A model generated the notes under the pieces. The model was not told the origin of the DNA. It did no database searches and saw only the letters and a program-made list of their open reading frames with translations. Shown here piece by piece: positions 17,610 through 59,936 of a DNA stretch of 64,000 nucleotides. The position numbers and the translations under genes were made by a program. The stretch comes from Octopus vulgaris (lineage: Eukaryota): assembly GCA_951406725.2 (NCBI GenBank), contig OX597818.1:4588001-4652000 (forward strand), written 5' to 3'. Position 1 is the stretch's first letter. Every line of letters begins with the position of its first letter.

Positions 17610-17644
<35 letters not shown>

Positions 17645-17649
17645 AAATC

Positions 17650-17854
17650 AAAAAAGGAAAATACGTACACTGACATGGTTATAATATAATTTTTAATATA
17701 TCGACCGGTTTCGCAATCGCTATTCATGATATAATGTTTAATTTAAACATTATATCATTAAAATTAAACATTATATCATGAATAGCGATTGCGAAACCGG
17801 TCGATATATTAAAAATTATATTATAACCATGTAAGTGTACGTATTTTCTTTTTT
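17650..17854. repeat. fold-back palindrome (~95-bp arms), one hammerhead per arm
   Basis: The arms differ at about 2 positions. A 14-nt snap-back duplicate lies at 17745-17758. Confidence 0.92.
17772..17808 (+). ncRNA. 37-nt minimal hammerhead motif, A3:U8 variant (mirror copy 17697-17733, minus)
   Basis: tatatc-ATGAATA-gc(gatt)gc-GAAA-CCGG-TC-gatata, with a 6-bp stem I, palindromic ACCGGT and a GUC site. Confidence 0.7.
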
Positions 17855-17865
17855 TAATATACACA

Positions 17866-17946
<81 letters not shown>

Positions 17947-18022
17947 ATAAATATTAGGGAATAAATCCAAATTTACAGGGTAAAATCAGATTTAGGACTG
18001 AATCCAATTTATAGTAAAATAT

Positions 18023-18384
18023 TATATAATATTAATTAGAGACAAAACCACTATTATGCAAATCAAACAAAGAAAGACTTAATCCAATACATAAAAAAAT
18101 TTATATAAATTAAATAAAATTAAATTCGCCACTACAATTGTTTCGTGTCTCTTCTAAGGGCATTCATCAGGTGGTATTCAGATCTTCTATTCAATTTTAA
18201 GTTATGAAGACTTCATAACTTAAAATTGAATAGAAGATCTGAATACCACCTGATGAATGCCCTTAGAAGAGACACGAAACAATTGTAGTGGCGAATTTAA
18301 TTTTATTTAATTTATATAAAATTTTTTATGTATTGGATTAAGTCTTTCTTTGTTTGATTTGCATAATAGTGGTTTTGTCTCTAA

Positions 18385-18397
<13 letters not shown>
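18023..18397. repeat. near-perfect 375-bp palindrome (187-bp arms, 1-nt spacer at 18210)
   Basis: The centre reads agttatgaag-a-cttcataact. One arm mismatch was seen, in an A/T run. Confidence 0.95.
18246..18291 (+). ncRNA. minimal type I hammerhead motif (mirror copy 18129-18174, minus)
   Basis: ccac-CTGATGA-atgcccttagaagagacac-GAAAC-AATT-GTA-gtgg, with palindromic ACAATTGT. Stem II is imperfect. Confidence 0.75.
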
Positions 18398-18479
<82 letters not shown>

Positions 18480-19510: not shown

Positions 19511-19548
<38 letters not shown>

Positions 19549-19555
<7 letters not shown>

Positions 19556-19823
19556 TTAGAGACAAAACGACTATTATGCAAATCAAACAAAGAAAGACTT
19601 AATCCAATCCATAAAAAATGTTATATAAATTAAATATAATTAATCTTAATTATATTTAATTTATATAAATTTTTTTATGTATTGGATTAAGTCTTTCTTT
19701 GTTTGATTTGCATAATAGTGGTTTTGTCTCTAATTAATATTATATTATATTTTACTATAAAATTGGATTCAATCATAAATCTGATTTTTCCCTGTAAATT
19801 TGGATTTATTCCCTAATATTTAT

Positions 19824-19830
<7 letters not shown>
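19549..19830. repeat. third fold-back (arms 19549-19643 and 19646-19740), same family as 17945-18397, without the ribozyme
   Basis: attaattagagacaaaac...taattaa-tc-ttaatta...gttttgtctctaattaat. The right arm continues into ccctgtaaatttggatttattccctaatattt. Confidence 0.9.
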
Positions 19831-19893
<63 letters not shown>

Positions 19894-34728: not shown

Positions 34729-34804
34729 GACTTACAGCCGTTTCAGTTGATACTCAATACACATTAAATTTACATTTATGTGATATGAGAACAATATCAT
34801 CAGA
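34729..34804 (-). ncRNA. type I hammerhead motif with long stem II; stem I disrupted by a SINE
   Basis: CTGATGA-[ttgttctca..cacat / atgtg..tgagtatcaa]-t-GAAAC-GGCT-GTA-agtc. Confidence 0.65.
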
Positions 34805-35214
34805 GGCGCAGGAGTGGCTGTGTGGTAAGTAGCTTGCTTACTAACCACATGGTTCCGGGTTCAGTCCCACTGCGTGGCACCTTGGGCAAGTGTCTTCTAC
34901 TATAGCCTCGGGCCGACCAAAGCCTTGTGAGTGGATTTGGTTGACGGAAACTGAAAGAAGCCTGTCGTATATATGTATATGTATATATATATGTGCGTGT
35001 ATGTGTGTGTGTCTGTGTTTGTCCCCCTAGCATTGCTTGACAACCGATGCTGGTGTGTTTATGTCCCCGTCACTTAGCGGTTCGGCAAAAGAGACCGATA
35101 GAATAAGTACTGGGCTTACAAAGAATAAGTCCCGGGGTCGATTTGCTCGACTAAATGCGGTGCTCCAGCATGGCTGCAGTCAAATGACTGAAACAAATAA
35201 AAGAGTAAAAGAGT
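34805..35214 (+). mobile_element. full-length tRNA-derived SINE (family A, CORE-like; resembles octopus SINEs)
   Basis: A box tggctgtgtgg, B box ggttcagtcc, ccttgggcaagt core, internal (TA/TG)n and a (GAGTAAAA)n tail. Confidence 0.92.
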
Positions 35215-35617
35215 AGAGGGAAAAATATGTACATTTGGATGTTATATGCGTGCTTATGAATTCATTTTAGTTGACTGAATGTTATGGCTTATGATTTGTA
35301 TTCTTATATGCTCGGACGAGGAGTTTACAGGTTGATTAGAGATAAAGTAGAATGGGTAAATAAACTTAGAACAATAAATAAAGTAAATAGAGATGATAGA
35401 GGTAAGTTAAATTTAAATAAGGTAAGTTTATAGTTAATAACAGAATGAAATATTTATTTATAAAGTATGAATAAAAATATAAAAACATATATGTTCATGT
35501 ACACACACACACGCGCGCGCACACACACATACACACACACGCGCGCGCGCACACACACATACACACACACACGCGCGCGCACACACACATACACACACAC
35601 ACGCGCATATATATATA

Positions 35618-37456
35618 TAAAGAAAATAAGTCATAGTAGAAAATGCTAAAATAATTTTATCATGGAGTATATTTTAGTACCGGTTTCTGCCATTTTTGAC
35701 TTTTTCAACTAAGAGTAAAATAAGAAAAACAATTAAATTGGAGAAACGTTTTGTAGTATTTTCATAGTCTTTGAATAAGTAAATATTTCCATAGTTTTCA
35801 GGCAGTCTGTCTGTTTCTCTCTCTATTCCTTTTTGAATGTCTGGTAGGTTGGTAGGTAGGTAGGTAGTAGTAGTAAATTTGAAGGAATAGTTTGGGTACA
35901 GATAGTCGATGCTTTAAGCAGGAGCAGCCGAGAGAGGAGAAAAAGAAGTGAGAGAAGAAGAAAGAGGAGGAGGAGGAATTGAAGGAGAAGATGAAGGAGG
36001 AAGAGAAGTAGGAGTAGGGAAAGAGGAGGGAGAAATAGAAAGAAAAGAAAAGAAAAATATAGGAGTGCTGTACCACAGTAAATTGTCCGTGGAATCTTCT
36101 TTAATAGTCAAATGACCTAAAAGTGACCTGTTGTGGTCGTAGCAGTTGTGGTGGGAATGTTCTAAGTTCTTGTATTTCCATCTGGAATATAGCCACCAAC
36201 AACTTCCATTCCTTGACATCTTCATTAAGAAATCTACCAACAAAATAGAAACAGATATCTACTATAAGTCTACAGATTTCAATCAATATCTGCTATTCAA
36301 CTCTCGCCACACCAGACACACTAGAATGAATATCCCTTACAACCTGATAAAGACACACGACTACACGAACTAAAGGACACACTTATCAGTAGGAACTACC
36401 CATCATCACTAATTGATATAGGCTTTCAACGAGCCCGACAACTCAACATCCACAAATTCAGACATCCCAAACTAAAGAAGGATTTACAACCAAAAGCCCT
36501 ACCATAATTATCCACGCACAAACTCCTCAACAATGAGGCATTCGACACCATCCCTTTACTAAAAAGGGACCATAGAATGGATCACATCCTCCAAATACAC
36601 ACCATCATAAAGAGCAAAATACAACCCAAGTGTATGAAAAGTCATCTAAGACAGGCCCAAGTACACCCGTCAACAACATCAAAACCAACAGTAAAAAATG
36701 CGGAAGACCTAACTGTGGTATATGTGTCAACCTAATTGAAGGATCAGAATTCCCCTTCAAACAGGGTTAACGTTTTTTAGTGAAGAACAACTTCACATGT
36801 GCTTCGGAAAACCTAATATATGTATTAATTTGCTCAGGGTGTCAAGAACAATATATTAGTAAAATTAAAAACAATTTCGTCAGAAGATGATGGTACATAG
36901 ATTACAAATTAAAATACGAGAATACAGAAAAATAGGATTAAGCGAGCACATCGATATTTGCGCCACTAAAGAACAACACAACTTCAGAATTTTTGTCCTC
37001 TATAAATTCAGGGACAATGCAAATTATAGTCAGCGCATCAGCAAAGAAGAATACTTTATCACAAAATTTAAACCTCTTTTGAATTCTGCCACCTCAGATA
37101 GAACTACAACAAGAATTTAGAACATTCCCACAACTACTACTACGGCCACAGCAGGTTACTTTTAGGTCATTTAACCATTAAAGAAGATTCCACGAACAAT
37201 TCACTGCGGCACAGCACTCCTATATTTTTCTTTTCTTTTCTTTTCTTTCTCCTTCTTCCTCCTCTTTCCCTACTCCTACTTCTCTTCCTCCTTCATCTTC
37301 TCCTTCAATTCCTCCTCCTCCTAGCTCCTCCTTCTTCCACTTCTCCCACTTTCCCCTCCTCCTTCGTCTGCTCCTGCTTAAATCATCAACTGTCTGTACC
37401 CAAACTATTCCTTCAAATTTACAACAACCTACCTACCTGCCAGGCATTCACAAAGG

Positions 37457-37507
<51 letters not shown>

Positions 37508-37763
37508 AGAGAGAGAGAGAGAGTTAGAGAGAGAGAGATTGAGAGAGAGATAGAGAGAGACAGACTGCCTGAAAACGATGGAAATATTTACCTATTCAAA
37601 GACTATGAAAATATCTATAAAACATGTCACATAATTTTTTTCTCCAACTTAATTGTTTTTATTTTACTCTTAGTTGAAAAGTCTAAAATGACAGAAACCG
37701 GTACTACAATGTACTTCATGATAAAATTATTTTAGCATTTTCTAACTTGTCTTATTTTCCTTA
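35618..37763 (+). mobile_element. Penelope-like element: 5'-truncated RT/GIY-YIG ORF between inverted pseudo-LTRs
   Basis: LPFLDIFI..IETDIYYKSTD..QYLLFNSRH, FTCASENLIYVLICSGCQEQYI and RISKEEYFITKFKPLLN. 35618-36173 is the reverse complement of 37109-37763. Confidence 0.92.
37671..37706 (+). ncRNA. minimal hammerhead motif, U3:A8 variant, in the PLE pseudo-LTR (mirror copy 35674-35712, minus)
   Basis: tag-TTGAAAA-gtc(taaaat)gac-a-GAAA-CCGG-TA-cta. The mirror copy has a ttag/ctaa stem I. Confidence 0.65.
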
Positions 37764-41241: not shown

Positions 41242-41283
<42 letters not shown>

Positions 41284-41353
41284 TGTGTGAAATTTGATTT
41301 AGTATTTCTAAATTGAATTTTTCACTGTAAGTTAGGATTAATATTCCCTCAAA

Positions 41354-41392
<39 letters not shown>

Positions 41393-41397
<5 letters not shown>

Positions 41398-42860
41398 AAT
41401 TAGAGTATCTACGAGATACCACCATGCTGAAAATAGCAGCCATGATCTGACTTTAAAACCACCTAAATTGTCCGTATATCAACACGGAGAGAAAACAAAG
41501 AGACAGGATGAAACAAGTAAAAAATTACTGATAATTCTAGATCCGGATTTCTGACTTTGCATTTATGAATGCTTTGCCTCGTCAGTAGAATACACACAGA
41601 AGATAAACATAAATGCATATATATATATATATAATTATAACATACGAATACTTACATATACGAACGTATACCTACATATATATGCACGTATGCATCATAG
41701 CCAGTTCAAAATACCCACCGCTTAATTCCATGTGAGATATGGTCAAAATATCGCCGCAGTAAATACAGTGACGAAATGAATTTAAATTTATATAAATAAG
41801 GATAAGGTATCTCGTAGATACCCTAATTTATAACTTTAATAATTATTACCTTTGAAGGTCATTCTTTCCATGCTGACCACTTGATAAAATCGTTATTTTA
41901 TTTTTAAATTAACTATCTTATCCTTTTTTTATATAAATTTAAATTAAAATTTTAATTTTAAAATTTTAGCAGCAATATTTTAAGCTCTAATTTCTACTTT
42001 TCCAGGTTTAATTGTTAAGAATATTGTTAGTATGTGTCTGCATTTTTAATTGGCTAGTATTAAATATTATTAGTAGTTAAGTAAATATTTGGGAAGGGGA
42101 GGGTTACATTAGTGGAATTAAATTATCAAAGGGTTTATTCAACTTCATTAGTGAGAGACACATCTTTATGTCAAACAGTTATTAATGTTGCCAAGTGTGT
42201 ATGTTCAAAGGTTATTAAATGTTTACTAAGAACACGTAAAGGTGGTTATGTGAGGCAATAATAATTCTAGATGCAATGGTTATAGTCATTATTATTAGTA
42301 GAAATATAGTTAAGTAAAAATTTGGGAGGAAGAGAATTATATTATCGGAATTAAAGCTTCAAAGGGTTTATAGAAATTCTTCAGTGAGAGGCACATCTTA
42401 ATGTCAAACGGTTATTAATGTTATGTATTATATTATGTTATGTTATATAGTGTAGTTATACTATTCTATGATTTAATTGTGTATTTATTAATTACTTAAA
42501 TTTAGCCAACACATATTTTCCTGCATGAATACAAGAATTATTTTTCTCGTTTCGTAAGTTAAGTAGGGCATACTTAGAAGTAAGAACTTTTGAAGGCTTC
42601 TTCGATACATAGATTGCATTTCTTGTTATTAATTTTATAAGCCATTGCAGAAGCAATAATGTCCCATTTAATTTCAAATTGAATGTTTTTATCCTTCAAT
42701 TCCCATATAAATTTGCTTAATCCGGTGGAGTTGATTTTCTGTTTATTTTTAAAAGAGTGGAGATGGTTAGCCACGCGGGGTCTTTTCTTTATTTTCGGCA
42801 GACCCAATATAGAAATATTTTTACAAGAGTTTCAACTGTGCATTGATAAGCGCAAGGGAT
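41393..42860 (-). mobile_element. Penelope-like element 3' remnant (GIY-YIG C-terminus plus rearranged pseudo-LTR)
   Basis: ANHLHSFKN..STGLSKFIWELKD..IKWDII..KCNLCIEE..LLNLRNE..SCIH. Inverted repeats at 41393-41420/41806-41833 and 41781-41806/41917-41943. Tandem 42075-42190/42308-42422. Confidence 0.75.
41534..41591 (-). ncRNA. well-preserved type I hammerhead motif
   Basis: attcta-CTGACGA-ggc.aaa.gcatt(cata)aatgc.aaa.gtc-a-GAAA-TCCGGA-TC-tagaat, with a 6-bp stem I, palindromic ATCCGGAT and an AUC site. Confidence 0.8.
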
Positions 42861-51430: not shown

Positions 51431-51507
51431 GCCCACATAGCTCAGTTGGTAGAGCATCAGACTCTTATGTAGTTGAGTGATGAAATCTGAGGGTCTCTCT
51501 GTGGGCA
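51431..51507 (+). pseudogene. tRNA-Lys(CTT)-like pseudogene or SINE head with a 17-nt intron-like insert and no T-arm
   Basis: gcccacatagctcagttggtagagcatcagact-CTT-a[tgtagttgagtgatgaa]atctgagggtc..gtgggca. The acceptor, D and anticodon stems pair. Confidence 0.6.
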
Positions 51508-51718: not shown

Positions 51719-53420
51719 AACTCATGCTACTAACCATGAGCTATAAAAAAAAACTTTTTCAGCTTATTGAACTTTGATATGGGAAAAAGCCTACAACCTT
51801 TACCAATAAATTATTATTGTTCCTGAACATTGTTTTTTGTACATTGCTCGAAGCTTATAAACTTCATACACTTAGATCCTTGGAGCTTATAATTACATAT
51901 ATATATATGCACACACACACATATATACATACATGTACACAAATGTTTATGGCTGTAAATGTATACATTTATAAATAATGTATATATTTCACTGCTTTGT
52001 TCTATATATATATATATAAAACAAAGTGCATGTATGTAAAGAATGTGCTTGTTCTATGCATGCTGTACCAGGTGGCTGTTTCCAGTAAGTATTCCTAGGG
52101 ATCTGCTCAGGGTACTACTTACCACTGTCCACCTTCTTTGATACCAATGCCATATACATACATATATATTGTTCAAATTTATAGAAAAAGACAAAGGTGT
52201 AGGAACAACATATGTATACACACACACACACACACACATGATACAAATAAGAAAATGATATTTTTTAAAATACAGAGTTGCCATTAGAATAGCAGAAATA
52301 CTGGGTTAACTACCATTAGAAGGTGCAAAAATTTGTCAATAACCAGCCATGGGACTTGAACCCACATTCCTCAAAGACTGGCTAAGTGGTTTACCATTAA
52401 GCAGCAACTCCACATTCGAAAAAGTATCATCTTCTTATTTGTATTGTACAATACACATTTTGATGCTTAAAAAAAAAACTCCAAATATTTGTTTGTTTAC
52501 ATTTATACACACATGGTTGTTCTATAAAGCTAAAAGTATTTAGCGTCTATATTTAGCGTCCAACCCATGCTAGCATGGAAAGCGGACGTTAAACGATGAT
52601 GATGATTTGGTGGTCATTTTGTCAGTGAGCAGTTTAGCTTAATATGGTAAAGCACTCAACTGGAGTCTTTGAGGGATATAGGTTTGAGTCCCATAGTTGG
52701 TTGTATGCATATGCATACATATATATTATTTATATTATTATTTGATTGAACGCCACACATCCATTTCCAAGTAAGTTTATTTTAATCTTTTTGATGCGAC
52801 TCTGTTCTCTCCCCCTATCGTTTTCTCTCTCATCCTTGCTCCTTTTCACCATTTTCTATCTATCTCTCTCTCTCTCCCCTTCTTTCTTCTTTCTCTCTCA
52901 TTGCTCACACATGACCATCGTCCATCTTTCTTTTCCGCATGATCATCTTTCTTTTGTTTCAGGGCTGTCTTAGAGGCTGGACATATCCTATCTATCTCTC
53001 TCTTCAATCTTTTCTCTTGTCAAAGAAAATATTTCTCCACCATTTGCTATTTTACCCTCATTCTGGTCTAATGACCCTCCATGTTTGTTTTCGTCTGCTT
53101 TCCTTGTATGTCTCCACTGTCTTGTTTTTGTTTCCAACTTGACCCTCCATAAATCCCAAATTTTATTTTGATATTTGTGGGAGCAACTGCGTTCGAAGAG
53201 TCATATTGTCGTTCAATGCTTGAAATGAGTAGTAGATAGGCAGTTGACAACTGATGAAGGGTCATCCTTTATGTAACTTGTCCTGTTTTCCATTTGTTTC
53301 TCATGTTGTTTGTGTATTCAACTCATTTGTTTTCGTATTTCATGTTGTTTTCTGTTTGTAACGTCCTGTACCCATATATGCCTATATATATATATATATA
53401 GATATATTTATATATATATA

Positions 53421-54699: not shown

Positions 54700-55354
54700 T
54701 ATACACACACACATGCTAGGCTACCGGTGACCCAACGGTAGTCTAGTATACATTCCCAGCAATGGAGTTTTGTTTTTTTTTTTTTTCCTTTTCTAGGTTA
54801 TTTTGCATGCTTTCAATGAATGTGATATCAAAATCATGTGTAAATGGCTCCTTTCCCTAGAAAAGGAAAGATTTGGTTGCTATTTCTTGCATGCCCCGCT
54901 ACCATGTAACAGGTATTTCAGGTCCTTTATTGCAAATAGCTGTTACATGGTAGCAAGGCATGCTAGAAATAGCTGCCGAATCTTTGGAGGTGAGATACGT
55001 TGAATGCACTAAAAAAAAACCTATGGAAAAAATTATTTCACATTGAGGTTAGGAATGGGTCTTTTATGAAATATTTACCGTATTTTTAAAGTCATTTTCA
55101 TTTTAAAATATTTTTTAAATATGCCAAAAAAAAGTTTTGTAATGGTATTCACTAGAAAATAATTTTAAAAAAACATTAAAATGTTGTCTGTTTAAAGAAA
55201 GCTAAAATATTAATACTTACTGTACAAACAACTTACATTTTTGAAATGACATTCACTTAAAAATATTTCTAAATGATTAAAATATTGTGTTTAACAAAAG
55301 TGAAAATAGAAACATTTATTGTAAAACAAACAAATCGTAATTTCTTGTTGCCAA

Positions 55355-57384: not shown

Positions 57385-57789
57385 CAGATATATTATAACA
57401 ACAACAACAACAACAATATTAATAGCAATCCTTTCTACTATAGATAGGCACAAGGCCTGAAATTTGTAGGAGGGGAATGTCGATTACATCGACCCCAGTA
57501 CACAACCAGTACTTAGTTTATTAATCTTGAAAAGATTAAAGGTAAAGTCGACCTTGGTGGAATTTGAACTCAGAACATAAAAACCAACGAAATGCTGCTA
57601 ACTATAATAATAATAAATTATAATCCTTTTTACTGAAGGCACAATGCTTTGAAATTTTGTGGGGAGGAGACTAGTTGATTACATTGACCCCAGTGTTTCA
57701 CTGGTACTTAATTTAGTTAGCTAGTTCCCTCTGATGTAAATTTACATCTTACATGCCACATTTTTTGTTTTGCATTTATTATTGACAGA

Positions 57790-58250
57790 ACATGAATTTT
57801 AATTAGAACAACTGCAGAGATTATTTTGTATATTTTGCTTAGATTTCAAATTAATTTGATTGTTAGAGGCAAAACCAAATTTGTGTTTCCTAAATTCTTT
57901 ATTATTATTAACATTTTCATATAATGTTATATTACTTCTCTTTCTAGAGGAATTCTTATTGGATTCAATGTCATTTATTTTATTAAACAGGGTTGTTTGC
58001 CTTTTCATGATGGTTATATTTGCAGCGTTTCTTTCTGTACAAGTTTTCTTATTCAGTTTAACATTTTTTAGATCATTATTGTTATTCTCAATATTCACTT
58101 TCCCACTGCGATCAGAATAGTTTTAAAAAAAATTTTCAAGGTTATCTTTTCACTGTGAGCTGCTATTATTTGTGCAATATTTCTACTATTAGAATACGCC
58201 AAACAGATTTCGTGTTTGTTACAAAACCGTGAAATATAAAAAGAACTTCA
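57790..58250 (-). mobile_element. Penelope-like post-RT linker remnant (Asn/Lys-rich)
   Basis: NKHEICLAYSNSRNIAQIIAAHSEK resembles the PLE N+HT+K+SYS..NI..II..HN motif. It is followed by an Asn-rich ORF ending CSC. Confidence 0.5.
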
Positions 58251-58379
58251 TTCAGTTTATACAAAACGTCCACAACCTTTCATCTTGATAAACCACTATT
58301 GTTCCTGAAAGTCGGTTTTTATATTTATTAGAAACTGTTTGAAGCTAACCTTCTTCCTACACCATGATCCTTGGATCTT

Positions 58380-58417
<38 letters not shown>

Positions 58418-58577
58418 TAAATTAGAGATAAAACCACTATTAGGCAAATCAAACAGTGAAAATCATAAGCCAATACACAGAAATAAAATTAATTAAAAAT
58501 AATATTAAATATAAAATATAAAAAATATAAAATTCCAAATTAAAATATTTAAATTAAAGTTAAAATCTAAAAAATTA

Positions 58578-59137
58578 TTGTTCGAAGGTTTATAATGGAC
58601 GCAGTTTGTGTGTCAAATAGCTAGCTTAAGGCGATGGCCTCATGGAGCTAATCAGCGACAGCTTTAGTCTTATATTTATAAGACTGCCATATTAGTATGG
58701 CAATAACTATTAATTTCCAGTAATGCTGCCGTAATCTCCTTTAGAGAGACTTAGTAATTTTAATATTTCTATTATTGAAAACAAGTGGATGTATTCCATT
58801 GAAACTAGGTAAATAAAGCCTTCGAACTGGGACGATCAGTAGCGACACCTGCAAGTCTGACTACGCTGCATTGATAAGGGGCAACAACCCTGAAACGTCT
58901 GTAGCTGTCTGACTGGCAGGATGAAGCGGCTGACCTCCCTTGTTCGAAGGTTTATAATGGACGCAGTTTGTGTGTCAAATAGCTAGCTTAAGGCGATGGC
59001 CTCATGGAGCTAATCAGCGACAGCTTTAGTCTTATATTTATAAGACTGCCATATTAGTATGGCGATAACTATTAATTTCCAGTAACGCTGCCGTAATCTC
59101 CTTTAGAGAGACTTAGTAATTTTAATATTTCTATTAT
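58578..59137 (+). mobile_element. retrozyme-like element B: 362-bp monomer (1.55 copies), nested in a PLE-type terminal repeat (58410-59907)
   Basis: 58578-58775 is repeated at 58940-59137 with 2 substitutions. The spacer holds the HHR, and the monomer has many hairpins. Confidence 0.8.
58865..58905 (+). ncRNA. minimal hammerhead motif, U3:A8 variant, apparently intact
   Basis: gctgca-TTGATAA-gggg(caacaa)ccct-GAAAC-GTC-tgtagc. Stem I extends outward (cctgc..agtc..gac / gtc..gact..gcagg). Confidence 0.8.
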
Positions 59138-59287
59138 ATATATATATATTTATTATTATTATTATTATTATTATCTTATTTTATTTATTTATTTATTTAA
59201 AAAAATTTTTTTTTATTATTATTATAATTTAAAAAAAAAAATTATATAACTATCAAAAAGTATTAAAAGTTTAATAAAGAGTAAAAA

Positions 59288-59798
59288 CACTACGATCGTT
59301 TCATGCCCGTAACCAATTCGAATAACAATAATTTAAATTCAATTAATAATTCGAATTATGGTTACAGGCACAGGAGTGGCTGTGTGGTAAGTAGCTTGCT
59401 TACCAACCACATGGTTCCGGGTTCAGTCCCACTGCGTGGCATCTTGGGCAAGTGTCTTCTACTATAGCCTCGGGCCAACCAAAGCCTTGTGAATGGATTT
59501 GGTAGACGGAAACTAAAAGAAGCCCGTCGTATATATGTATGTATATATATATGTGTGTGTGTATGTTTGTGTGTCTGTGTTTGTCCCCCTAGCATTGCTT
59601 GACAACTGATGCTGGTGTGTTTACATCCCCGTCACTTAGCGGTTTGGCAAAAGAGACCGATAGAATAAGTACTGGGCTTACAAAGAATAAGTCCTGGGGT
59701 CGATTTGCTCGACTAAAGGCGATGCTCCAGCATGGCCGCAGTCAAATGACTGAAACAAGTAAAAGAGTAAAAGAGTAAAGAGAGTCAATCTTCAGGTT
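59288..59798 (-). ncRNA. hammerhead motif split by a SINE insertion in stem II
   Basis: aac-CTGAAGA-ttgactc|SINE|gtaacc..aattcgaat..attcgaatt-ggttacgggcat-GAAAC-GATC-GTA-gtg. Confidence 0.65.
59366..59781 (+). mobile_element. full-length SINE family A
   Basis: Closely matches 34805-35214, including the (GAGTAAAA)n tail. Confidence 0.92.
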
Positions 59799-59902
59799 AA
59801 TTGTAATATTTTAATAAATAATCAGAAATATTTAAACAAAATAAAATAAAATAAATCCTAAATCTAATTTTTCCCTGTAAGTTTGGATTTACTCCCTAAT
59901 AT

Positions 59903-59936
<34 letters not shown>

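What the first reader, a model, noticed from the sequence alone, without database searches (positions are those of the whole stretch)
58578..59137. Retrozyme-like 362-bp tandem monomer with an intact U3:A8 hammerhead (candidate circular-RNA element)
Seen: a 198-bp direct repeat with a 362-bp period, only 2 differences and no ORF. It carries one HHR per period with a GUC site at 58897-58899. The monomer is strongly self-complementary (agtcttata-tt-tataagact, gccata-ttag-tatggc, ttcgaagg/ccttcgaa and an extended stem I). It sits within a PLE-type terminal repeat, next to a PLE ORF remnant. Established: animal non-LTR retrozymes are tandem monomers of a few hundred nt with type I HHRs that yield circular RNAs. 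Inference: a young cephalopod retrozyme family. A permuted 1.55-mer is what reverse transcription around a circular template would give.
Basis: partly seen in the sequence, partly recalled or inferred. Interest (0 to 1): 0.85.

Follow-up and report, generated by a model that had tools for sequence, protein, structure and literature searches.

The report
Penelope-mobilised hammerhead mini-retroelement, 362-base ring
This is a 1.55-unit copy of an abundant, protein-free 362-base repeat that carries a self-cutting RNA motif; its relatives share a fixed end next to TA repeats, so it is likely copied by a Penelope-type retrotransposon, probably from a small circular RNA that has not yet been seen.

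Summary
In detail: a 198-bp repeat, period 362, two differences, no ORF, and a type I U3:A8 hammerhead with GUC at 58897-58899. The locus holds only one hammerhead. Public-run contigs show a high-copy family (2747 and 2060 contigs in two DNA runs). Its unit closes head-to-tail in other samples with no ORF in between. Copies do not look freely permuted. Displayed 3' ends cluster at 58771-58775, mostly before (TA)n, with a minor end at 58712-58714. Summed depth falls 5'-ward around the ring, with a step after a 40-nt extension (58776-58815) resembling the Penelope-specific 'tail'. Best reading: a non-autonomous, retrozyme-type passenger of Penelope-like elements (PLEs), reverse-transcribed from a fixed internal site, probably on a ligated circle (0.5). 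The main rival is an uncleaved linear tandem template (0.33). The flanking PLE end and GIY-YIG remnant lie on the opposite strand and belong to older elements. Circular RNA, cleavage and two-hammerhead multimers are untested. The scan's earlier notes hold no look-alike. This is a new member of a known kind, with useful mechanistic evidence.

The parts
58578..58775 (+). Upstream partial unit (repeat copy 1); the 5' end of the insertion. It carries two private CpG-type transitions.
   Evidence: family has G at 58702 (98-99% of depth) and C at 58724 (96-97%)
58776..58815 (+). Candidate 40-nt PLE-type 'tail' (optional 3' extension between two reverse-transcription start sites); contains a 6-bp hairpin
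   Evidence: inferred from a 7-fold step in summed contig depth after 58815 in both DNA runs; no displayed loose-end row confirms an end at 58815
58580..58827 (+). Folded domain A, closed by a predicted 12-bp helix 58580-58591/58816-58827
   Evidence: z -4.6 for 58578-58830
58829..58939 (+). Folded domain B: rod-like extended stem I that carries the hammerhead
   Evidence: z -3.8
58859..58909 (+). Type I hammerhead: stem I 58865-70/58900-05, internal loop 58862-64/58906, U3:A8 core 58871-77, stem II 58878-91, GAAA 58892-95, loopless palindromic stem III, predicted cut after C58899
   Evidence: family variant with a 2-nt insertion in stem III (ACAUGU palindrome) and a G-C for G.U in stem I
58940..59137 (+). 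Downstream repeat (copy 2), matching the family majority at both differing sites; its 3' end (59137, equivalent to 58775) is the family's main fixed end and the inferred start of reverse transcription
59138..59149 (.). (TA)6 run at the insertion's 3' end: inferred target; no clear target-site duplication
   Evidence: (TA)n follows the same end in runs X4, X11, X20
58413..58577 (-). Landing site, left: AT-rich terminal sequence of an older PLE-end family (77-80% like 18029-18125, 18295-18391, 19548-19654, 19635-19740)
59150..59903 (-). Landing site, right: AT-rich stretch; a second, minimal PLE-type hammerhead (GAAA..GUA half at 59291-59302, long stem II up to ~59366, CUGAAGA half at 59789-59795) split by a SINE-like repeat (59366-59783); then a short inverted end piece at 59854-59903
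   Evidence: reading it as one split hammerhead is an inference from the sequence
57720..58360 (-). Decayed PLE-type ORF remnant reaching the start of a GIY-YIG endonuclease; a neighbour, not part of the unit
   Evidence: E 1.6e-10 to P0002, which continues into a YIG motif; atlas features 0.93 to a GIY-YIG cluster, family on 12% of members; no direct Pfam hit

Best explanation
The 560 bp are one insertion of a high-copy, protein-free repeat family whose 362-base unit closes head-to-tail and carries a type I hammerhead, and it was likely copied by a borrowed Penelope-like reverse transcriptase from a probably circular RNA. Shown: the repeat, the hammerhead motif, the family, the ring closure, and a main 3' end at 58771-58775 that mostly abuts (TA)n. 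Inferred steps: (1) tandem source loci are transcribed. (2) Two hammerheads pair their palindromic stems III and cut out a 362-nt monomer, whose ends are held together by the extended stem I and are ligated. (3) A PLE endonuclease nicks (TA)n, and the PLE reverse transcriptase starts inside the RNA at an AU-rich hairpin 238 nt past the cut site, or about 40 nt further on (the 'tail'). (4) It usually stops early, leaving sub-unit fragments without a hammerhead. Here it ran 1.55 turns, through the hammerhead site, giving two identical 198-bp repeats that later took two CpG changes. This single-hammerhead copy would be a dead end unless it pairs in trans.
For: (4 of 24 listed runs laid, all contigs, on 58420-58939): 2747, 2060, 56 and 15 contigs laid. 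The junction 58939->58578/9 appears in 3 of 4 runs, with several letter variants. The ring also continues through 58815/16 into the hammerhead arm in 4 of 4 runs (pieces 5-7, 16, 23, 31, 32), so both joints exist without an ORF. Displayed loose ends at 58772-58775 run into (TA)n in X4 (15 contigs), X11 (1) and X20 (3); two more X20 pieces stop at 58771 and 58774. Summed depth falls with distance 5'-ward round the ring from an origin at 58776-58812 (Spearman -0.85, -0.80, -0.81, -0.69; best of 21 origins tried) but not from the cut site (+0.05 to +0.50). Depth steps 7.4- and 6.6-fold after 58815. Two internal start sites 30-40 nt apart, AT-rich targets and the tail are PLE signatures (PMC11167929; PMC8557442). 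The two repeats agree at 15 of 15 sites polymorphic in the family; two independent members would do so with about 0.01-0.02 if sites were independent. U3 has no C variant at 5% or more in X2 or X4 (all T>C places accounted for), and natural U3:A8 cores are active in vitro (PMC3088659). Size, GC and a 6-bp/4-bp hammerhead without the 9/10.1 bulge match retrozymes, including 350-390-bp mussel units that make circles (PMC7229834), rather than PLE minimal hammerheads (PMC4209133).
Against: No call shows a circle, a cut end or a two-hammerhead multimer. A ligated junction has the same letters as uncut RNA, and no displayed piece aligns over more than 130 nt. The depth profile of the RNA? contigs follows the DNA profile (rho 0.74 and 0.68), and the displayed long RNA? 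contigs are host transcripts carrying fragments; this is a weak hint of read-through rather than unit-length RNA. Summed contig depth is no copy number, and the step after 58815 could partly reflect subfamily divergence at 58818-58835. X2 shows no 58775 end among its 6 displayed rows; 282 of 306 loose-end rows were hidden; a minor end lies at 58712-58714. Family variants do not favour the predicted fold (9 of 30 break a pair vs 11.3 expected, P 0.2). The hammerhead is weak on paper (no loop III, G.U at 10.1-11.1, slipped register). Eight of 9 Xenopus retrozyme dimers did not cleave in vitro (bioRxiv 2026.07.22.740005), and cleavage is dispensable for an anole PLE in vitro. No autonomous partner was identified.
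Confidence: 0.5

Rival explanations
1. Same non-autonomous, PLE-mobilised family, but copied from an uncleaved linear read-through transcript of a partial tandem (a mini-PLE with pseudo-LTRs). The hammerhead is a mostly idle passenger and no circle is needed.
For: Fixed 3' end, tail-like extension, 5' truncation and (TA)n targets are all ordinary PLE behaviour. Non-autonomous PLEs with pLTRs and head-to-tail copies are described (PMC8557442). Unprocessed RNA is the main substrate of the anole PLE. All predicted helices also form in the linear order 58578-58939. The RNA? contigs mirror the DNA profile.
Against: The hammerhead has canonical retrozyme proportions with a long extended stem I rather than the PLE minimal form. 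Both halves of the unit fold better than shuffles. Similar-sized units made circles in the three animals tested.
Confidence: 0.33
2. An ordinary pseudo-LTR of an autonomous PLE: a 5'-truncated partial tandem whose ORF lies at other loci.
For: The window holds several PLE ends with minimal hammerheads, some with U3:A8. Most loose ends were hidden, so a branch into an ORF cannot be excluded.
Against: Past the tail the sequence runs straight into the hammerhead arm and back to 58578 in other samples, with no ORF. No frame of the unit has a Pfam hit or resembles the window's PLE remnants. The adjacent ORF remnant is on the other strand.
Confidence: 0.1
3. A monomer insertion followed by a local 198-bp duplication, or a miniature LTR element (TRIM-like) with 198-bp LTRs.
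For: Near-identical repeats arise this way too; only one such locus was read in full.
Against: The 58939->58578 junction recurs in 3 of 4 runs with variants, so it is a family trait. There is no TG..CA border, and no clear target-site duplication at the ends. 5' ends vary (58803, 58840).
Confidence: 0.07

Closest known systems
Animal non-LTR retrozymes (Cervera and de la Pena 2020, PMC7229834; mussel units of 350-390 bp)
   Same: No ORF, unit 362 bp, GC 41%, canonical-proportion type I hammerhead with a weak palindromic stem III, compact predicted fold, head-to-tail joint, high copy number, PLEs in the same genome.
   Different: U3:A8 core. This locus has one hammerhead only. The family seems mostly dispersed 5'-truncated fragments with a fixed 3' end at (TA)n and a candidate PLE tail; the main-text parts read do not describe such ends. 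Circles and arrays are not shown here.
Retrozymes as non-autonomous PLE derivatives (Li, Clavereau, Pollet, bioRxiv 10.64898/2026.07.22.740005)
   Same: Same overall conclusion: retrozymes ride on PLEs; dispersed monomer derivatives are described.
   Different: Their evidence is co-occurrence and pLTR homology, mainly in vertebrates. Here it is the insertion signature. By their rule (two consecutive hammerhead-bearing units) this locus is not an 'active' retrozyme.
PLE pseudo-LTR with tail (Poseidon of Anolis, PMC11167929; Penelope of Adineta, PMC3846280; Neptune/Naiad microsatellite bias, PMC8557442)
   Same: Partial tandem, fixed 3' end downstream of the hammerhead, candidate 40-nt tail, 5' truncation, AT/(TA)n target.
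   Different: No ORF between the repeats (164 bp instead of about 3 kb); the hammerhead is not the minimal form.
Non-autonomous Chlamys PLEs such as MRC1 (PMC8557442, section 10)
   Same: Non-coding PLE passengers that form pLTRs and head-to-tail copies.
   Different: Green-algal; the paper reports no canonical hammerhead in most Chlamys, and no circle is proposed.

Membership tests
Animal non-LTR retrozyme | Non-coding unit of about 150-450 bp, GC under 50% | tested here: met
   362 bp, GC 41%, longest ORF 29 aa, no Pfam hit
Animal non-LTR retrozyme | Type I hammerhead of canonical proportions (6-bp stem I, 4-bp stem II, short palindromic stem III) | tested here: met
   core is the U3:A8 covariant; no Rfam match
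Animal non-LTR retrozyme | Loop 1 - loop 2 tertiary contact nucleotides | tested here: inconclusive
   The internal loop 58862-64/58906 and hexaloop 58882-87 resemble canonical ones from recall; the machine-read Fig. S1 of PMC4209133 was too scrambled to confirm
Animal non-LTR retrozyme | Multi-copy family with head-to-tail units | tested here: met
   2747 and 2060 contigs; junction 58939->58578/9 in 3 of 4 runs
Animal non-LTR retrozyme | Loci with two or more consecutive hammerhead-bearing units | tested here: inconclusive
   Not met at this locus (one hammerhead); no genome held and contigs too short to test other loci
Animal non-LTR retrozyme | Self-cleavage and unit-length linear/circular RNA | not testable with these tools
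   Only contigs available; RNA status of X11 and X20 is a guess
Animal non-LTR retrozyme | No LTR, PBS or PPT | tested here: inconclusive
   Ends lack TG..CA and a clear target-site duplication; PBS and PPT were not searched for
Autonomous Penelope-like element | RT + GIY-YIG ORF between the pLTRs | tested here: not met
   164 non-coding bp between the repeats
PLE-mobilised non-autonomous element | Fixed 3' end with variable 5' truncation and AT/microsatellite target | tested here: met
   Ends at 58771-58775, (TA)n in 3 of 4 runs among displayed rows; depth gradient; minor end at 58712-58714
PLE-mobilised non-autonomous element | Optional 30-40-bp tail | tested here: inconclusive
   7-fold depth step after 58815 in both DNA runs; no displayed loose end at that place
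PLE-mobilised non-autonomous element | Sequence shared with an autonomous PLE of the same genome | not testable with these tools
   No genome held; no match to the PLE ends inside the window

The most novel reading that the evidence does not exclude
A retrozyme whose genomic copies carry the PLE-specific footprint (two fixed internal start sites 40 nt apart, (TA)n targeting) and whose circular RNA is read more than once round by a PLE reverse transcriptase. This would be direct evidence that PLE enzymes mobilise animal ribozyme circles, and a working model for how PLE partial tandems and pseudo-LTRs are regenerated.
Probability: 0.35. Interest if true: 0.75.

Novelty: new member of a known kind. 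Interest (0 to 1): 0.5.

Why it matters
Which enzyme copies animal retrozymes back into DNA is still argued from co-occurrence and pLTR similarity (PMC7229834, PMC7761336, bioRxiv 2026.07.22.740005), and how PLEs rebuild their partial tandems is unresolved. A high-copy family with retrozyme anatomy and PLE-type ends makes both questions testable: ends can be mapped over many copies, and a 362-nt circle can be offered to a PLE protein in the published in-vitro assay. My searches of the library listed no paper on cephalopod retrozymes or on PLE tails in retrozymes. The supplement of PMC7229834 and the bioRxiv supplements could not be seen and may bear on this. If no circle exists, it is a modest addition: one more non-autonomous PLE family.

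Tried and rejected
No genome is held for this window, so copies could not be surveyed directly. Rfam: no hammerhead family matched. A 24-nt exact pattern found 0 loci in metagenome, viral and prokaryote contigs, as expected for an animal repeat. No RNA holder on record was listed; this is no evidence either way. The left flank 58420-58533 was skipped as repeat by the read-laying tool, so its zero depth says nothing. A possible decayed endonuclease frame on the minus strand of the repeat was considered and dropped: no Pfam hit and no match to the window's PLE remnants. Word-index homologue searches for the ORF remnant and for P0002 found nothing; only the full HMMER search and the atlas placed it. 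The test of family variants against the predicted fold was inconclusive (30 of the 40 displayed variant rows used, those at 5% or more in a DNA run; 6 rows were hidden). 'Free circular permutation' was rejected for the 3' end. The idea that the flanking AT-rich arms are inverted repeats of the unit was rejected: the match is low-complexity (75% over 68 nt), and the arms belong to another PLE-end family. PMC6765202 was not read. Earlier scan notes hold no look-alike sequence and nothing for this genome.

Full report
Observation. The repeat is as described: 58578-58775 and 58940-59137, 198 bp, spacing 362, two differences. The unit has no ORF over 29 aa on either strand when read as a ring, and is 41% GC. 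A type I hammerhead lies on the + strand: 6-bp stem I, core UUGAUAA at 58871-58877, 4-bp stem II, GAAA, and GUC at 58897-58899. A strict descriptor gives this one hit in the window and none in 200 shuffles. The monomer folds far better than shuffles (z -6.8 linear; -6.6 circular) into two domains: A, closed by a 12-bp helix 58580-91/58816-27, and B, a rod 58829-58939 carrying the hammerhead. The repeated 198 bp alone are not unusually stable (z -1.3). There is only one hammerhead in the 560 bp. It has no loop III, a G.U at 10.1-11.1 and a competing slipped stem II, so it would need a partner to cut well; dimer action of such motifs is described in PMC4209133 and PMC7229834. Rfam does not recognise it. 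The U3:A8 core is a known natural covariant, active in vitro (PMC3088659 section 8) and common in schistosome PLEs (PMC4209133).

Surroundings. The unit sits inside an older composite PLE end that runs from 58413 to about 59903 between (TA)n runs. Its left arm and right tip match the palindromic elements at 17940-18400 and 19530-19835 (77-92%). The first of these carries minimal hammerheads on both strands (18170 and 18250). A second minimal hammerhead on the minus strand at 59291-59795 appears split by a SINE-like repeat at 59366-59783 (inference). The ORF remnant at 57720-58360 is real: it matches P0002 at E 1.6e-10, which continues into a YIG motif and resembles a GIY-YIG cluster by features (0.93; family on 12% of members). 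These neighbours are on the strand opposite to the unit's hammerhead and share no sequence with the unit, so I read them as the landing site.

The family. No genome is held. Public runs hold the unit in 20 of 24 listed rows, 10 studies and five organism labels. I laid 4 of them, all contigs, on 58420-58939 at 85% likeness. The DNA runs gave 2747 and 2060 contigs, and the two RNA-guessed runs 56 and 15. One 102-nt contig has depth 2334 against 43-52 for long flank-bearing contigs, so the family is high-copy; the summed depth gives no copy number. The joint 58939->58578/9 occurs in X2, X4 and X20 with several variants, and pieces cross 58815/16 into the hammerhead arm in all four runs. The unit is therefore a closed ring at family level, with no ORF. 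A common allele has a 2-nt insertion making stem III the palindrome ACAUGU and turns the stem I wobble into G-C. U3 has no C variant at 5% or more in either DNA run.

Ends. Among the 24 displayed loose-end rows (282 hidden), ends at 58772-58775 run into (TA)n in X4 (15 contigs), X11 (1) and X20 (3). One X11 end at 58774 runs into other sequence, two X20 pieces stop at 58771 and 58774, X2 shows none in its 6 rows, and a minor end lies at 58712-58714 (X20, X2). Long contigs begin at 58803 (X4) and 58840 (X11, X20). Summed depth peaks at 58744-58779, stays high to 58815, drops about 7-fold in the next bin in both DNA runs, and falls 5'-ward round the ring: Spearman -0.69 to -0.85 from an origin at 58776-58812 (best of 21 origins), against +0.05 to +0.50 from the cut site. 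This is the saw-tooth of target-primed reverse transcription from a fixed site with 5' truncation. The 40-nt shoulder 58776-58815 has the size of the PLE tail, which PMC11167929 traced to two internal start sites. The tail rests on depth only and could partly reflect subfamily divergence at 58818-58835.

One event. At the two differing sites the family has copy 2's letter (96-99% of depth), and both changes are CpG transitions in copy 1. The two repeats also agree at 15 of 15 family-polymorphic sites, expected at about 0.01-0.02 for independent members if sites were unlinked (linkage would raise this). So the repeats were identical on arrival, from one template read through the hammerhead site. 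That template was either ligated or uncut.

Mechanism and odds. I favour the retrozyme cycle with a PLE enzyme (0.5): dimer cleavage in tandem transcripts, ligation to a 362-nt circle, nicking at (TA)n, internal start 238 or about 278 nt past the cut site, usually early stops, here 1.55 turns. For it: canonical hammerhead proportions, a long stem I that would hold the cut ends together, a compact fold of both domains, and circles from similar units in coral, mussel and axolotl (PMC7229834). Against it: nothing here shows a circle, a cut or a dimer; all helices also form in linear order; RNA? contigs mirror DNA (rho 0.74, 0.68) and look like read-through; variants do not favour the fold (9 of 30 break pairs vs 11.3 expected); 8 of 9 Xenopus dimers did not cleave; cleavage is dispensable for an anole PLE. 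A linear uncut template gets 0.33, an ordinary pLTR 0.1, and local duplication or a TRIM-like element 0.07.

Comparison and novelty. It works like an animal non-LTR retrozyme and meets the features I could test, but arrays and circles are untested, and this locus fails the two-hammerhead rule of bioRxiv 2026.07.22.740005. That preprint already argues retrozymes are non-autonomous PLE derivatives, and PMC8557442 describes non-autonomous PLEs with pLTRs. What this adds is a probable cephalopod member, a U3:A8 core and a PLE-type insertion signature. Searches listed no paper with these. Verdict: new member of a known kind, interest 0.5.

Papers seen. bioRxiv 2026.07.22.740005: parts 1-3 of 5 (abstract to discussion), supplements not seen. 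PMC7229834: parts 2-4 of 6 and passages; supplement unreadable. PMC4209133: parts 1-2 of 4, supplement file 2 part 1 and a term search (no octopus or cephalopod in it; file 1 not searched). PMC11167929: parts 1-2 of 4. PMC8557442: passages and sections 5, 6, 10. PMC3088659: passages and section 8. PMC3846280, PMC7761336, PMC6155905, PMC13282606: passages only (the last has no mention of ribozymes in its main text). PMC6765202: search listing only.

Noticed in passing
window 17940-18400: Near-perfect 380-bp palindrome between (TA)n runs with a minimal hammerhead on each strand (cores at 18170 minus, 18250 plus) and an extension on one arm only: an inverted pair of PLE ends with a tail.
   Followed up: partly
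window 19530-19835 and 17640-17865: Two more palindromic insertions at (TA)n: the first is the 17940-18400 family without the hammerhead centre; the second (93% self-complementary) has a GAAA..palindrome..UC half and a degenerate core.
   Followed up: no
window 35650-37750: 3' fragment of a Neptune-like PLE (C-x4-C-x2-C linker and decayed endonuclease frames; clade label from recall, no Pfam hit) flanked by inverted ends, each with a U3:A8 minimal hammerhead (35708 minus, 37674 plus).
   Followed up: partly
window 41280-41620: Another PLE-type end: minus-strand hammerhead at 41585 with 6-bp stem I and an 8-nt palindromic stem III, and a terminal piece 80% like 59858-59905.
   Followed up: no
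window 59291-59795: Minus-strand minimal hammerhead with an unusually long stem II hairpin, apparently split by a SINE-like repeat that is 94% like 34804-35221.
   Followed up: partly
run contigs laid on window 58682 and 58735: Loose ends before 58682 (X2, 18 contigs; X11) and 58735 (X20) show diverged but similar letters: probably a sister family sharing the 3' hairpins 58682-58775.
   Followed up: no
window 51431-51507 and 52628-52702: tRNA-family Rfam matches above gathering score (37 bits), probably tRNA-derived SINE heads.
   Followed up: no
window 54873-54980: A ~107-bp near-perfect hairpin that draws several weak miRNA-family matches; probably a MITE or palindromic repeat.
   Followed up: no
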